IMG/VR virus record: IMGVR_UViG_3300021255_000054
Length of the DNA stretch: 64,000 bases
Strand: one strand, 5' to 3'
Origin: a virus
Lineage: Duplodnaviria > Caudoviricetes
The position numbers and the translations under genes were made by a program. The notes below the pieces were generated by a model. It saw only the letters and a list, made by a program, of their open reading frames with translations, had not been told where the DNA came from and did no database searches. Positions 53,795 through 60,615 of this stretch are shown here, piece after piece (within the stretch, counting starts at the first letter, position 1; each line of letters opens with the position of its first letter).

Positions 53795-53867
53795 ATTTAC
53801 AGAAGGTAAGGAAAGGAACTTATCTTCTGTAAATTATTTTTTTCATTACATAAGGAGGTAATGAGAT

Positions 53868-54256: not shown

Positions 54257-54341
54257 TGCCCTGCGGTCCGTGGCGGACAGACGGTCTCTAAAACCGTGGC
54301 CTCTGAAGCAAACGAAGTTGGTTCGATTCCAACCAGGGCAG
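54257..54341 (+). tRNA. amber suppressor tRNA (anticodon CUA), probably Gln-charged
   Basis: Acceptor TGCCCTG/CAGGGCA plus G73; anticodon arm ACGGT-CTCTAAA-ACCGT; T arm GTTGG-TTCGATT-CCAAC; 19-nt variable region. Confidence 0.9.
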
Positions 54342-54632
54342 TTGCGGTATGTGCTTAATGAGTACGTACTTTGTAAAGGAAAATGTAGTTCAGCGGGATG
54401 CTGGCTTATACTAGTTGACATTTTTTTTAATACAATCTCCAGTAAGAGCAAAAAACTGCCACGGGCTGGGTGAAATGCCCCGGGTCCACCTTCCTTGCCT
54501 ACGGTGAGTGTCCGTTCAAGGCAGAAAACATGCGGTCCGGCCGGACGCGACGATGGCTAGTTTGGGGTTTTACGCCACGCTCTTTAGGCAGCGCAACCCG
54601 CTATGACGAGATCTTAGCACGCTTGCCTATAT

Positions 54633-56532: not shown

Positions 56533-56561
56533 TTGACTTATATCAAAATTTTTGATATAAT
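56533..56561 (+). promoter_or_regulatory. sigmaA promoter directly upstream of CAGCAA element 1
   Basis: TTGACT-17-TATAAT with TGn. Confidence 0.8.
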
Positions 56562-56572
56562 AAATATGAACA

Positions 56573-56681
56573 AAGGCTCCTGCAGCAAATTTTCTTTGGA
56601 CTGTAAATCCCCGTGTCATTGGTTCGATTCCAATCCCGAATAGGGTAGCTCAGCTAGGTAGAGCAGGTAATTAGGAGTCTT
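56573..56681 (+). ncRNA. CAGCAA element 1: circularly permuted tRNA-Tyr(GTA)-like RNA
   Basis: Stem AAGGCTCC/GGAGTCTT; order is anticodon loop, T arm, CCC-GAATA-GGG, D arm. Confidence 0.8.
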
Positions 56682-57002
56682 GTAACTCAAACTGCGGCAA
56701 TAAGCCGAATCCTTAGCCGTTGTGCGTGCTACTCGTATAGTAACACAATAGTCAGCGGTTAGTTGGAGACCGTAGTGCGGCAACGGTATACAAAAACGCA
56801 CCGTGTGGTAGAGATTGCCCGTTAGGTTCCTCACTACTAGCAACGATAGGGCATAAATAAAGAAGTCTCCTAACTCTAATATGCTCCTGAACAAGAGCCG
56901 GTGGATCTTACGGTGAAAACCCGTAGTAAAGAACGACAAAACTGCTCACTTGCGCAAGGGGTTTATGGTTATCCTCGCTTTGGCGAAAAACCTTATCAAT
57001 AT

Positions 57003-57073: not shown

Positions 57074-57498
57074 CGACGCGATGCTAGTAGCGTAAGAAAA
57101 GACTAGCCGTGGCTAAGCGCAGAATCGTATTGGCGCTAGAGTTCTTGGACGCAAGATAGCTCGCACTTCTGAATGGCCAATCAGAAGTCATTAAATTGGG
57201 CCGAAAAACAGGAAGGCTGAGGAAAATGGATTGGAAGTCCTGGGCAGCTCTTAGGGTCGCGCCCTAAACTGGAAAACCAAAGCAGCTTCATCTACTGCTC
57301 CTGTCACAATGTGTAGGCCGAATTATTTCACTCGCAAGGCGCGTGAAGCCAGCGCAAATCTGGCTGAGTGGCTCCGCGGAGATAACCGCGGCGTAAGGTA
57401 ACTGAAATGCAAACCAGCGCAGATACATGACCTGCGCAGTAGAAATTAAAGGTGCCGCGCTGATAGACCGCAAGTTCGCAATAGTCTATTATTTATAT

Positions 57499-57576
57499 CA
57501 TCTATGTAGCTCAGAGATAGTAGAGTGCTCCCGCAGTAATGGGAGAGGTCGAAGGTGCGAATCCTTTCATAGATGA
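57499..57576 (+). tRNA. atypical tRNA with 8-nt anticodon loop (GCAGTAAT)
   Basis: Good acceptor, D and T arms; CTCCC/GGGAG stem; no U33. Confidence 0.6.
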
Positions 57577-57632: not shown

Positions 57633-57703
57633 GCGATTATAGTGTAGTGGTAACATAGGTGCTTGCCATGCACCTGTCATGGGTTCGAATCCCATTAGTC
57701 GCT
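57633..57703 (+). tRNA. tRNA-Gly(GCC)
   Basis: Cloverleaf, loop TTGCCAT. Confidence 0.9.
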
Positions 57704-57706
57704 CTT

Positions 57707-57822
57707 TAGACATATCAGCAATCATTCTTGCTAGAGGAGCCCGTTCAGTGTTGGTTTAAATCCAACCCACCCGACCATCGGGTGGTCGCTCAATTGTTAG
57801 AAGCACGGTAAAAGTATGTCTA
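57707..57822 (+). ncRNA. CAGCAA element 2: permuted tRNA-like RNA with internal CCA
   Basis: Stem TAGACATA/TATGTCTA; T arm, CCACCCGA-CCA-TCGGGTGG, D arm. Confidence 0.78.
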
Positions 57823-57828
57823 GTTTTT

Positions 57829-57900
57829 GGCCTTATGGTATAGTGGTAATTACGTAGCCCTGTCACGGCTAAGACCGCAGTTCAATTCTGCGTAAGGTCG
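57829..57900 (+). tRNA. tRNA-Asp(GTC)
   Basis: Cloverleaf, loop CTGTCAC. Confidence 0.9.
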
Positions 57901-58258
57901 CATAGGTTGATTTTGAAGTCCTTTCCTAAATTGGATGGAGGGAACCCAAGCTAGCAAAAAACACGTCCTACAGTGGTGTGCCCGGGTTAGCACACATTAA
58001 AACTGTCGCCACGGTTAATGGTTCAAATTCTGCCGGCAATAGCGAAACAATAGAAGTCCCGCAAGGTGAAAGCGTTCCAATAGGATGTTCGGCGGCAAGT
58101 TTTTTATGGTACATAAGTCAGCCCGTTAGACTTTAAATGGCGGGACACTGTCCGACCAAGAGTTTGTATTTGTCGCAAATTATGTCGTTAAACTGTCCCC
58201 AAAAATACTCATTCACCTTAGTATTTTTGGGTTACTCATCACAAAATATTAAGGAGGA

Positions 58259-58756
58259 ATGAAAATGAGTAATCTAAAAACTAGACAAATTACAGGTATC
58301 GCTATCTTAACTGCGCTTTATTGTGTATTAAGCGCAATGATGAAGATCCCATTTATAGGTGCAATTTCTCTTGATTTGGGGTATATTGCACTTACAGTAG
58401 GATGCACGCTATTTGGCCCTTGGGCCGCTGTTATTGGTGCTGTAGGATGTGGACTTGAAAGTATTCTTTTTTCGCCATATGGCTTCAGTATCAGTTGGTT
58501 CGTAGCAAATTTAATTATCGGCCTTGGATGCGGAATCGTGTTCAAGAAAACCGAGAATATTTGGCTACGAATTGCCGCAATAGTAGGATTCGTTGCGGTA
58601 GGTATGCTTGGCGCGAAAACTGGTATTGAGTGCTACTTGTATCATATTCCATTTGCAGTTAAGATTGTAAAAAATGCAGTAGCATTTGGCGTTGATACTA
58701 TTACAATGCTGATTGGTTTAAGTATTAGTAATAGAGTAGTAAAATATTGGAAATAA
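58259..58756 (+). CDS. ECF transporter S component (substrate-binding membrane protein)
   Basis: Multiple TM helices, AxxxA in TM1, IP...LFGP..A..G pattern. Confidence 0.8.
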   Translation: MKMSNLKTRQITGIAILTALYCVLSAMMKIPFIGAISLDLGYIALTVGCTLFGPWAAVIGAVGCGLESILFSPYGFSISWFVANLIIGLGCGIVFKKTENIWLRIAAIVGFVAVGMLGAKTGIECYLYHIPFAVKIVKNAVAFGVDTITMLIGLSISNRVVKYWK

Positions 58757-59132: not shown

Positions 59133-59208
59133 TAGGCGCGAGCAGCATGATATTTATAAGAATTATTTATTTGATGAACTTCTTATTGGTTTTTGTTATT
59201 TGCGCCTA
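59133..59208 (+). ncRNA. CAGCAA element 3 (CAGCAT variant, AU-rich hairpin cargo)
   Basis: Stem TAGGCGCG/TGCGCCTA. Confidence 0.55.
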
Positions 59209-59319: not shown

Positions 59320-59393
59320 AGACACGTCAGCAACTATCTTTTAATGCATCAAGAATTAAGCACCGGGTCGGCTCCGGGAAGATAAGCGTGTCT
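59320..59393 (+). ncRNA. CAGCAA element 4 (D-like and T-like hairpins)
   Basis: Stem AGACACG/CGTGTCT; inner TATCTT/AAGATA; CCGG-GTCGGCT-CCGG. Confidence 0.65.
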
Positions 59394-60553: not shown

Positions 60554-60615
60554 AAGACTCGTCAGCAACTTTTCAAGCATTGGACTTTTAATCTAACTAG
60601 CTATAAACGAGTCTT
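60554..60615 (+). ncRNA. CAGCAA element 5 carrying a tRNA-Lys(TTT) anticodon stem-loop
   Basis: Stem AAGACTCG/CGAGTCTT; TTGGA-CTTTTAA-TCTAA. Confidence 0.72.

What the first reader, a model, noticed from the sequence alone, without database searches (positions are those of the whole stretch)
57707..57822. Second permuted tRNA keeping its 3'-CCA joined to its own 5' end
Seen: T arm GTTGG-TTTAAAT-CCAAC, then CCACCCG-A-CCA-T-CGGGTGG, then a D-arm-like GCTCAATTGTTAGAAGC and ACGG pairing with upstream CCGT. The 7-bp acceptor (C1:G72, A73, as in tRNA-Pro or this phage's Ile tRNAs) plus CCA is complete but forms an internal hairpin loop. Inference: the element arose from a circularised mature tRNA or a tandem duplication. 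One cut after CCA would free a chargeable end, so it could be a latent tRNA mimic activated by processing.
Basis: partly seen in the sequence, partly recalled or inferred. Interest (0 to 1): 0.78.

Follow-up and report, generated by a model that had tools for sequence, protein, structure and literature searches.

The report
Phage tRNA-mimic Y-like RNA
The "back-to-front tRNA" is real, but it is not a decoding tRNA: it is a small phage RNA built like the tRNA-shaped Y RNAs of bacteria, carried on a conserved "handle" that travels with a Ro60-shaped phage protein, and its internal CCA is a recurrent rather than a fixed feature.

Summary
Observation confirmed. Window 57705-57828 (+) lies exactly between tRNA-Gly and tRNA-Asp and folds as T arm, 7-bp acceptor helix capped by the loop ACCAU, then D arm, all enclosed by a short stem and a 9-bp terminal helix. 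In 19 distinct homologs 96% of cells pair and 23 of 32 pairs show changes on both sides.

It has no anticodon arm, so it is not a decoding permuted tRNA. Its topology is that of the tRNA-like domain of YrlA Y RNAs. It fails YrlA membership: 16 bits against a cut-off of 69, no GNCGAA motif, no TROVE gene.

The terminal helix plus CAGCAA is a handle shared by at least 8 RNAs of this phage. It occurs 137 times on the gene strand and never on the other strand in 1.6 Mb around DUF2828 genes. In 1.0 Mb of control phage DNA it occurs 0 and 1 times. The phage's DUF2828 protein models as a Ro60 ring (Z 14.4 to phage Ro60) inside an RNA-repair island.

R-CCA caps 6 of 33 distinct homologs and R-C-Y caps 19. 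That fits opening by RNase P, as shown for M. smegmatis YrlA, but this is untested here.

Earlier notes of this scan already describe this handle/DUF2828 pairing in other genomes. I found it in neither Rfam nor the papers I could search.

The parts
57705..57828 (+). Whole RNA unit (about 124 nt) between tRNA-Gly(GCC) 57633-57704 and tRNA-Asp(GUC) 57829-57901
   Evidence: Model R1 hit at 148.3 bits. The flanking tRNAs touch it at 0 nt on both sides.
57706..57714 (+). Handle, 5' strand of the terminal helix (UUAGACAUA). The outer pairs WAGRC are conserved and the inner 4 pairs covary.
   Evidence: Helix 1 has 7 of 8 pairs with changes on both sides. Eight paralogues share the same head.
57716..57721 (+). 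Invariant CAGCAA motif of the handle, one base after the helix
   Evidence: It is invariant across homologs and paralogues. It defines the signature that is enriched upstream of DUF2828 genes.
57717..57732 (+). Possible small hairpin AGCAA-UCAUUC-UUGCU, formed by part of CAGCAA; uncertain
   Evidence: Predicted, but 4 of 5 pairs never vary and none covaries. Distant members lack the UUGCU partner.
57733..57740 (+). Purine-rich linker AGAGGAGC (GGAGC is conserved in the close subfamily)
   Evidence: Alignment. RNAfold offers an alternative pairing of GAGC with the D-stem strand GCUC, but D-stem covariation argues against it.
57741..57744 (+). Inner stem, 5' strand (CCGU). It stands where the 3' strand of a tRNA anticodon stem would be and pairs with 57805-57808.
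   Evidence: Helix 3 has 3 of 4 pairs with changes on both sides.
57745..57749 (+). Variable-region equivalent (UCAGU). Its last base pairs with position 15 (Levitt pair).
   Evidence: Position 15/48 is A/U in 17 sequences and G/C in the paralogue.
57750..57766 (+). T arm (GUUGG-UUUAAAU-CCAAC)
   Evidence: Helix 4 is 100% paired, with 4 of 5 pairs changed on both sides. The T loop is TTCRANT in most homologs.
57767..57785 (+). Closed 7-bp acceptor-like helix (CCACCCG / CGGGUGG) capped by the loop ACCAU at 57774-57778. The CCA is at 57775-57777.
   Evidence: All 7 pairs change on both sides. The stem has 6-7 of 7 pairs in 33 of 36 relatives. The loop starts R-C-Y in 19 of these 33 and R-CCA in 6.
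57786..57804 (+). U8-N9 equivalent (UC) and D arm (GCUC-AAUUGUUA-GAAGC)
   Evidence: U8 and A14 are invariant. The D stem switches between GCUC/GAGC and GUUU/AAAC.
57805..57808 (+). Inner stem, 3' strand (ACGG)
   Evidence: helix 3.
57809..57814 (+). A-rich 3' linker (UAAAAG)
   Evidence: It is A-rich in all homologs.
57815..57828 (+). Handle, 3' strand (UAUGUCUA), then the invariant G at 57823 and a U tail at 57824-57828 that ends where tRNA-Asp begins
56569..56687 (+). It has the same handle and module order, but a 3-bp acceptor stem.
   Evidence: R1 scores 26.8 bits over the full length. Rfam YrlA scores 36.5 bits.

Best explanation
The element is a gene for a small non-coding RNA of about 124 nt with two parts.

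(1) A handle. This is an 8-9 bp terminal helix whose outer pairs are fixed (5'-WAGRC ... GYCUW-3'). The motif CAGCAA follows the 5' strand directly, and an invariant G follows the 3' strand.

(2) A cargo. This is a tRNA body without an anticodon arm, wired in the order T arm, 7-bp acceptor helix closed by a short loop, D arm. That is the topology of the tRNA-like domain of bacterial YrlA Y RNAs.

Most likely course of events (inferred unless marked shown):
- The RNA is transcribed with the neighbouring tRNAs. The enzymes that trim them set it free: RNase P cutting at tRNA-Asp makes its 3' end, and 3' processing of tRNA-Gly makes its 5' end.
- The phage's own Ro60-shaped protein (DUF2828/DUF7788, 503 aa, 14.7 kb downstream on the same strand) binds the handle, as Ro60 binds the stem of Y RNAs.
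- The particle then displays a tRNA-shaped module to enzymes that recognise tRNA. It acts within the phage's tRNA supply and RNA-repair island (kinase, phosphoesterase, RlaP nucleotidyltransferase, Rnl2-type ligase).
- A further, less certain step: host RNase P opens the capping loop 5' of C57779. This would leave a two-piece RNA with a tRNA-like R-CCA end, already encoded in this copy.

Shown here: the structure and its covariation, the shared handle, its co-occurrence with DUF2828, the Ro60-like fold of a predicted model, and the RNA-repair gene context.
Inferred: binding, processing and biological role.
For: Structure:
- 19 distinct homologs, 96% paired, 23 of 32 pairs changed on both sides.
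- De novo consensus fold agrees.
- U8, A14 and the 15/48 pair behave as in tRNA.
- The re-joined halves are called a cloverleaf.

Likeness to YrlA:
- YrlA is the only non-tRNA Rfam family that keeps matching these elements: 16.3, 36.5, 38.6, 35.9 and 34.6 bits.

Handle:
- Seven RNAs of this genome with a 9-bp WAGRC..CAGCAW..GYCUW-G signature, plus an eighth at genome 176.9 kb, all on the + strand inside the tRNA region.
- 82 copies on the gene strand and 0 on the other in 907 kb around 80 DUF2828 genes, all upstream of the gene.
- 55 and 0 in 687 kb around 59 further DUF2828 genes.
- 0 and 1 in 1.03 Mb of control phage loci.
- Complete relatives with DUF2828 carry 6/0 and 10/0 5' half-handle motif matches (WAGRC N4-6 CAGCAW). 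The complete relative without DUF2828 has 1/1.

Protein:
- Pfam DUF2828 plus DUF7788.
- AlphaFold model with pLDDT 75.5.
- The top 13 Foldseek hits (E <= 0.001) and the top 10 VIA-align hits are all Ro60/TROVE: 9KOP at E 2.6e-6 and Z 14.4 over 412 residues, human Ro60 at Z 12.9, Rsr at Z 12.5. The next hits are vWA-only at Z 7.9 or less.

Context:
- AAA_33 kinase, metallophosphoesterase and an RlaP-family nucleotidyltransferase flank the gene. An Rnl2-type ligase lies at genome 1.2 kb.

Biogenesis:
- A tRNA ends 0 or 1 nt before the element in 13 of 19 distinct homologs and starts within 2 nt after it in 10. The flanking tRNAs differ between phages.

RNase P step:
- The acceptor helix is exactly 7 bp and the loop starts R-C-Y in 19 of 33 and R-CCA in 6 of 33.
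- M. smegmatis YrlA with a 7-bp stem is cut by RNase P and gains CCA (PMC4201824).
- A phage Ro60 binds phage Y-like RNAs and host PNPase (PMC12135203).
Against: - There is no transcript, end-mapping or binding datum.
- The DUF2828 gene is 14.7 kb from this element, not adjacent.
- All the loci used for the association are relatives of this phage (39-100% protein identity to one of the two query proteins; 48-89% to this phage's protein in the first set). Shared gene order in one large lineage could therefore produce much of the signal.
- The Ro60 likeness rests on a predicted model with TM about 0.5 and no sequence-level match to PDB Ro60.
- The known Ro60-binding motif GNCGAAN0-1G is absent, and the terminal helix is a perfect duplex without the bulges that Ro60 reads in Y RNAs.
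- CAGCAA may be partly paired in this subfamily.
- The window copy has lost the G19-C56 elbow pair (D loop GU, T loop UUU), which might weaken recognition by RNase P.
Confidence: 0.6

Rival explanations
1. It is a true circularly permuted tRNA gene, as in Cyanidioschyzon. The transcript would be circularised and then cut at the acceptor junction, giving a decoding, chargeable tRNA.
For: The 3' half precedes the 5' half. The acceptor is 7 bp with a purine and CCA. The phage has an RNA ligase. ARAGORN accepts the re-joined halves if a loop is supplied.
Against: There is no anticodon arm. The would-be anticodon stem is 3-4 bp and opens into linkers, a CAGCAA motif and a conserved 9-bp perfect helix. 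Joining the ends would give loops of differing length and sequence in different homologs. The Rfam tRNA model and ARAGORN do not call the element. No bulge-helix-bulge motif is present. Paralogues with the same handle carry non-tRNA cargo.
Confidence: 0.03
2. It is a tRNA decoy or a processing 'punctuation' element that works without a dedicated protein. It would soak up or recruit host tRNA enzymes (RNase P, RNase Z, CCA-adding enzyme, tRNA-targeting toxins), or merely space and fold the tRNA array. On this view the link to DUF2828 is only shared gene order.
For: The element abuts tRNAs on both sides in most homologs. It has a tRNA-like elbow and a 12-bp acceptor/T stack. The association data come from one phage lineage.
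Against: A spacer or decoy does not explain the sequence-specific conservation of the handle (WAGRC/GYCUW, CAGCAA, the trailing G) across RNAs whose cargo differs completely. Nor does it explain the strict strand and position bias relative to DUF2828, or the near absence of handles in the complete relative without DUF2828.
Confidence: 0.2
3. It is a Y-like RNA whose partner is not the phage DUF2828 protein. The partner could be a host Ro60/Rsr or another phage protein, for example the DUF7873 family that earlier notes of this scan pair with other permuted tRNA mimics.
For: YrlA-like topology. Some gut Bacteroidota carry TROVE proteins (control line). Earlier notes report tRNA mimics paired with DUF7873.
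Against: The YrlA Ro60-binding motif is absent. The handle follows DUF2828. The RNAs paired with DUF7873 in those notes are 360-650 nt two-headed RNAs lying right after their gene, which is unlike this unit. I did not search this genome for DUF7873, and the host is unknown.
Confidence: 0.1
4. It is a decaying remnant of a tandem tRNA duplication (3' half of copy 1 plus 5' half of copy 2) with no function.
For: Junctions of adjacent tRNAs give weak YrlA-like hits elsewhere in this genome. Chen et al. warn of this artefact.
Against: The two acceptor strands pair with each other and covary at all 7 positions. Structure is conserved in 36 distinct relatives and in several paralogues. The handle is conserved. 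No parent tRNA is found.
Confidence: 0.02

Closest known systems
YrlA, the tRNA-like Y RNA of Salmonella, Mycobacterium and Ro60-encoding phages (Rfam RF02553; Chen et al. 2014, PMC4201824; Wang et al. 2018, bioRxiv 10.1101/312249)
   Same: The 5' and 3' ends pair in a terminal stem. The body is a tRNA-like module in the order T arm, loop-closed acceptor-like stem, D arm. There is no anticodon loop. The M. smegmatis member has a 7-bp acceptor stem, is cut there by RNase P and receives CCA. A conserved motif sits on the 5' strand at the inner end of the terminal stem.
   Different: Rfam scores are far below the cut-off (16-39 bits against 69). The motif is CAGCAA after a perfect helix, not GNCGAAN0-1G in a bulged helix. 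No TROVE-family Ro60 gene is present. The candidate partner is a DUF2828/DUF7788 protein that resembles Ro60 only in fold. The gene sits inside a tRNA array and touches tRNAs at both ends, rather than lying beside rsr.
Thermus phage phiLo Ro60 with Yrl1 and Yrl2 (Hu et al. 2025, PMC12135203; PDB 9KOP, 9L5Y)
   Same: A phage-encoded Ro60-type ring protein with phage-encoded small RNAs upstream of its gene. It is the best structural match of this phage's DUF2828 model (Z 14.4). In vitro it forms complexes with host PNPase.
   Different: phiLo Ro60 was identified there as a Ro60 homolog by a UniProt search, and its RNAs carry the CGAA motif in a stem-bulge-stem. Here sequence identity is about 15%, the motif differs, and the cargo is a tRNA body.
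Circularly permuted tRNA genes of Cyanidioschyzon merolae (recalled from my own knowledge; they are mentioned in reviews listed, which I did not read)
   Same: The 3' half of the tRNA is encoded before the 5' half, and the acceptor strands are joined by a short linker.
   Different: Those genes encode a full anticodon arm and end in a bulge-helix-bulge motif for circularisation. This element has neither, and it carries a protein-type handle instead.
CAGCAA-handle RNAs with a DUF2828 protein, described only in earlier notes of this scan on other genomes
   Same: The same handle, the same protein family, tRNA-piece cargo, and placement in tRNA and RNA-repair islands.
   Different: Those are unpublished AI notes. 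What is specific here is the cargo (a complete YrlA-type tRNA body with a strict 7-bp acceptor and an R-C-Y/R-CCA cap) and the flush placement between tRNAs.

Membership tests
YrlA / bacterial Y RNA (RF02553) | tRNA-like module in the order T arm, closed acceptor-like stem-loop, D arm, enclosed by a stem formed further out | tested here: met
   The cmscan alignment to RF02553 covers positions 1-114 with this layout. Covariation supports it, as does the de novo fold.
YrlA / bacterial Y RNA (RF02553) | Score at or above the Rfam gathering threshold (69 bits) | tested here: not met
   This element scores 16.3 bits, E 0.34. The paralogue scores 36.5. Homologs score 38.6, 35.9, 34.6 and 24.8.
YrlA / bacterial Y RNA (RF02553) | Ro60-binding motif GNCGAAN0-1G on the 5' strand of the terminal stem (PMC4201824) | tested here: not met
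   The 5' strand reads UAGACAUA-U-CAGCAA. GACGAAU occurs in one homolog only, as part of the covarying helix.
YrlA / bacterial Y RNA (RF02553) | Encoded next to a Ro60/Rsr (TROVE, PF05731) gene | tested here: not met
   There is no PF05731 match in this complete genome or in four relatives. A protein with a Ro60-like fold (DUF2828) lies 14.7 kb downstream.
YrlA / bacterial Y RNA (RF02553) | Bound by Ro60; carries tRNA modifications; in M. smegmatis cut by RNase P | not testable with these tools
   This needs RIP, EMSA, modification mapping and an RNase P assay.
Circularly permuted tRNA gene | 3' half upstream of 5' half, with complementary acceptor strands | tested here: met
Circularly permuted tRNA gene | Complete anticodon arm restored when the ends are joined, with a processing motif at the ends | tested here: not met
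   The inner stem is 3-4 bp. It is followed by linkers, CAGCAA and a 9-bp perfect helix. ARAGORN calls it only after an artificial loop is added.
Canonical tRNA (RF00005) | Matches the tRNA covariance model or ARAGORN | tested here: not met
   No tRNA hit at E up to 10 within 57700-57830. ARAGORN makes no call.
CAGCAA-handle RNAs (family defined within this scan) | 8-9 bp terminal helix WAGRC../..GYCUW, then 0-2 nt, then CAGCAW, with G after the 3' strand | tested here: met
   57706-57714 / 57716-57721 / 57815-57823.
CAGCAA-handle RNAs (family defined within this scan) | Co-occurs with a DUF2828 gene, on the same strand and upstream of it | tested here: met
   Own genome. Relatives G001, G002, G003 and G009 have both; G008 has neither. 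Counts are 137 on the gene strand and 0 on the other near DUF2828 genes, against 0 and 1 in controls.
CAGCAA-handle RNAs (family defined within this scan) | Handle bound by the DUF2828 protein | not testable with these tools
   The complex predictor takes no RNA. This needs EMSA or RIP.
Ro60/TROVE proteins (for the candidate partner) | HEAT-repeat ring plus C-terminal vWA domain | tested here: met
   The full-length model matches Ro60 structures only: Foldseek E 2.6e-6 to 7e-4, VIA Z 9.1-14.4 over 387-412 residues.
Ro60/TROVE proteins (for the candidate partner) | Sequence membership in Pfam TROVE (PF05731) | tested here: not met
   Only DUF2828 and DUF7788 match, and there is no PDB Ro60 hit by sequence.

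The most novel reading that the evidence does not exclude
The closed acceptor is a pro-form. Host RNase P reads the 7-bp acceptor/T stack and the R-C-Y (here R-CCA) cap and opens the loop. This would turn the Ro60-like particle's RNA into a two-piece molecule with a genuine tRNA-type CCA end. Such an end could be extended, charged, or attacked like a tRNA end. The phage could use it as bait or sensor for host defences that target tRNA, or to recruit repair enzymes to damaged tRNAs.
Probability: 0.25. Interest if true: 0.85.

Novelty: new variant of a known kind. Interest (0 to 1): 0.62.

Why it matters
Y RNAs with a tRNA-like domain are known only as partners of canonical Ro60. If this reading holds, a large group of uncultured phages uses a second, sequence-divergent Ro60-like protein. 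Its RNAs would share one handle and display different pieces of tRNA: here a whole tRNA body, elsewhere in the window a lysine anticodon arm.

These RNAs are made as by-products of tRNA-array processing. They sit in an island that supplies and repairs tRNAs. That makes them good candidates for players in the conflict between phages and host nucleases that attack tRNA.

It also gives an easy test of whether RNase P routinely opens closed-acceptor tRNA mimics. So far that has been seen in one mycobacterial RNA only.

Tried and rejected
- blastn of the region against deposited phage genomes found nothing. An exact 24-mer of the T arm and acceptor found nothing in IMG/VR.
- A loose pattern (ATCAGCA..TGCT..GGAGCC) returned over 120 mostly chance loci. 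I re-used these as a control set.
- Other weak YrlA hits in the genome (176249, 176708, 176786) are only junctions of neighbouring tRNAs. The two partial R1 hits in L270 and L265 are the same artefact.
- cmscan proposed an alternative closing helix, GCUAGA with UCUAGU. It is not conserved in homologs.
- RNAfold proposed pairing upstream GAGC with the D-stem strand GCUC. I rejected it because the local D stem covaries (GCUC/GAGC to GUUU/AAAC) and distant members lack GGAGC.
- The small CAGCAA hairpin is left open, because it shows no covariation.
- TROVE (PF05731) and RtcB (PF01139) are absent from the genome.
- No parent tRNA is recognisable. The best is tRNA-Ile(UAU), with only generic similarity.
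- The weak Twister-sister hit (16.2 bits, E 0.3) was disregarded.
- The literature library holds no paper linking DUF2828 to Ro60 or Y RNA, and none on permuted tRNAs in phages.
- I did not search for the DUF7873 protein named in earlier notes, because I did not know its accession.

Full report
WHERE IT IS. The window is bases 111290-175289 of a complete 189,572-bp IMG/VR phage record with direct terminal repeats. The phage carries 25 ARAGORN tRNAs. The flagged stretch lies in the tRNA array. tRNA-Gly(GCC) ends at 57704 and tRNA-Asp(GUC) begins at 57829, so the unit is 57705-57828 on the + strand.

- a T arm at 57750-57766;
- a perfect 7-bp helix CCACCCG/CGGGUGG capped by ACCAU at 57767-57785;
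- a D arm at 57788-57804;
- ACGG at 57805-57808 pairing with CCGU at 57741-57744.

UUAGACAUA at 57706-57714 pairs with UAUGUCUAG at 57815-57823. The fold is better than shuffles (z -3.8).

HOMOLOGS AND COVARIATION. I found relatives through the neighbouring ECF-transporter gene, through two pattern scans and with a covariance model, R1.
- In 19 distinct sequences, 96.1% of cells pair and 23 of 32 pairs change on both sides. No shuffle of 500 does as well. Sliding the partners drops pairing to 35-46%.
- All seven acceptor pairs covary: CCACCCG, CCUCCCA, CUUGGGC, AUCCCUG, UAGUACC and others.
- RNAalifold on an independent MAFFT alignment recovers the same helices except the weak D stem.
- tRNA tertiary marks are kept. 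U8 and A14 are invariant, and the 15/48 pair is A/U in 17 sequences but G/C in the paralogue.
- When the two halves are re-joined around an artificial 7-nt loop, ARAGORN (relaxed -ps thresholds) draws a cloverleaf.
- G-U pairs fix the + strand.

WHAT IT IS NOT.
- It is not a decoding tRNA. There is no anticodon arm. The inner stem is 3-4 bp and opens into linkers and the terminal helix. ARAGORN and the Rfam tRNA model do not call it.
- It is not a dead tandem duplicate. Covariation, conservation in 36 distinct relatives and the lack of a parent tRNA all argue against that.

WHAT IT RESEMBLES. The only Rfam family that keeps matching these elements is YrlA (RF02553). Its consensus has exactly this layout. 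Scores are 16.3 bits here, 36.5 for the paralogue at 56569-56687, and 24.8-38.6 for homologs. All are below the 69-bit cut-off.

Chen et al. 2014 (PMC4201824) define YrlA by three things: the tRNA-like module, the motif GNCGAAN0-1G, and a position beside Ro60. The motif is absent here. No TROVE gene exists in this genome or in four relatives. So the element works like a YrlA module but is not a member of that family.

THE HANDLE. Earlier notes of this scan pointed to a CAGCAA 'handle' and a DUF2828 protein. I tested both.
- At least eight RNAs in this genome carry the signature WAGRC-N4-(0-1 nt)-CAGCAW ... N4-GYCUW-G. All are on the + strand inside the tRNA region.
- Five lie in the window: 56573-56681, 57706-57823, 59133-59208, 59320-59393 and 60554-60615.
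- Three lie just beyond it, at genome coordinates 176.9, 178.9 and 179.0 kb.
- Their cargo differs. It includes whole tRNA bodies, a T arm, and a lysine-type anticodon stem-loop.
- The outer helix pairs, CAGCAA and the trailing G are fixed, while the inner helix pairs covary. That is the pattern expected of a protein-binding site.

THE CANDIDATE PARTNER. The phage encodes a 503-aa DUF2828/DUF7788 protein at about 183.7-185.2 kb.
- Its AlphaFold model (pLDDT 75.5) matches Ro60 structures over its whole length and nothing else.
- Foldseek E-values are 2.6e-6 to 7e-4 for the top 13 hits. The best is Thermus phage phiLo Ro60, 9KOP.
- VIA-align gives Z 14.4, 12.9 and 12.5 for phage, human and Deinococcus Ro60. 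Hits that match the vWA domain only reach Z 7.9 at most.
- There is no sequence-level match.
- The neighbouring genes are an AAA_33 kinase, a metallophosphoesterase and an RlaP nucleotidyltransferase. An Rnl2-type RNA ligase lies at 1.2 kb, across the repeat.
- This is the RNA-repair setting in which Iyer et al. 2021 (PMC7824862) place phage TROVE proteins 'with a tRNA-like partner'.

ASSOCIATION OF HANDLE AND PROTEIN.
- Around 80 DUF2828 genes (907 kb) the full signature occurs 82 times on the gene's strand and 0 times on the other. All copies are upstream of the gene.
- Around 59 further genes found with a 48%-identical query (687 kb) the counts are 55 and 0.
- In 1.03 Mb of unrelated phage loci the counts are 0 and 1.
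- Complete relatives with DUF2828 have 6/0 and 10/0 matches to the 5' half-handle motif. The complete relative without DUF2828 has 1/1 and no R1 hit.
- Caveat: all these phages are relatives, so shared gene order contributes to the signal.

BIOGENESIS. A tRNA ends 0-1 nt before the element in 13 of 19 distinct homologs and begins within 2 nt after it in 10. The flanking tRNAs differ between phages: Gly/Asp, Asp/Glu, Asn/Ala, Gly/Met. The RNA's ends are therefore most simply made by the tRNA-trimming enzymes. There is no room for a promoter of its own. A weak promoter-like site lies at 57464-57492, ahead of the upstream tRNAs.

THE CCA. It is not conserved, but it is not random either. I counted the 33 distinct relatives whose acceptor stem has 6-7 of 7 pairs.
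- The cap begins R-C-Y in 19 of them. About 2 would be expected by chance.
- The cap begins R-CCA in 6, in four different stem lineages. About 0.3 would be expected.
- Relatedness between sequences inflates these counts.

R-C-C is the 3' element that bacterial RNase P pairs with through its P15 loop. That is established knowledge and was not tested here. A 7-bp acceptor stem is what made M. smegmatis YrlA, alone among the YrlA RNAs tested, an RNase P substrate that then gained CCA. Only 3 of this phage's 25 tRNAs encode CCA. I give it about 0.25-0.35. In this copy the G19-C56 elbow pair is lost, which may weaken recognition.

VERDICT.
- The structure is real and functional-looking (about 0.9).
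- It is a YrlA-like tRNA mimic on a handle RNA, probably the partner of the phage's Ro60-like DUF2828 protein (about 0.6).
- It is not a permuted decoding tRNA.

Neither the handle nor the DUF2828 link is in Rfam 15 or in the papers I could search. The scan has already noted the same system on other DNA.

Noticed in passing
window 57500-57575 (+): A tRNA-like gene scores 43.1 bits with the Rfam tRNA model, but ARAGORN does not call it. By eye its anticodon stem CUCCC/GGGAG encloses an 8-nt loop, GCAGUAAU. It could be a frameshift-type or non-canonical tRNA.
   Followed up: no
window 54257-54490 and 53797-53864 (+): A tRNA with anticodon CUA (amber suppressor type; ARAGORN labels it 'Pyl') is followed at once by a full-length Rfam cow-rumen-3 RNA (100.6 bits). 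A cow-rumen-4 RNA lies 400 nt upstream. Relatives show the same trio. This suggests TAG recoding and a rumen or gut origin.
   Followed up: partly
window 60554-60615 (+): This handle RNA's cargo includes a 5-bp stem with the 7-nt loop CUUUUAA. That makes it a look-alike of a tRNA-Lys(UUU) anticodon arm, the classic target of anticodon nucleases.
   Followed up: partly
window 59133-59208 and 59320-59393 (+); genome 176.9, 178876-178968 and 178973-179095: Further CAGCAA-handle RNAs carry other cargo: a T arm only, or D, anticodon-like and T arms without an acceptor. The one at 176.9 kb ends just before a ribosome-binding site and ATG.
   Followed up: partly
window 56533-56561 (+): A near-consensus sigma-70 promoter (TTGACT-17-TATAAT with TG, 11 of 12 matches) sits directly upstream of the paralogue at 56569-56687.
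   Followed up: no
window 58259-58756 (+): A gene for an ECF-transporter S component (PF07155, E 1e-14) is embedded in the tRNA array. It is conserved at 66-90% identity in six related phage contigs. Its substrate is unknown.
   Followed up: partly
L262 (genome 175290-189572) and genome 1210-1746: An RNA-repair island: AAA_33 kinase, metallophosphoesterase, the Ro60-like DUF2828 protein, an RlaP nucleotidyltransferase, DUF5662, and an Rnl2-type RNA ligase across the terminal repeat. There is no RtcB.
   Followed up: partly
L026:6133-6245; L143:4737-4822: The tRNA arrays of related phages also hold a RAGATH-33 RNA (137.9 bits) and two tandem abiF-motif hits (37.9 bits, at the 37-bit cut-off, and 29.8 bits, below it).
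   Followed up: no
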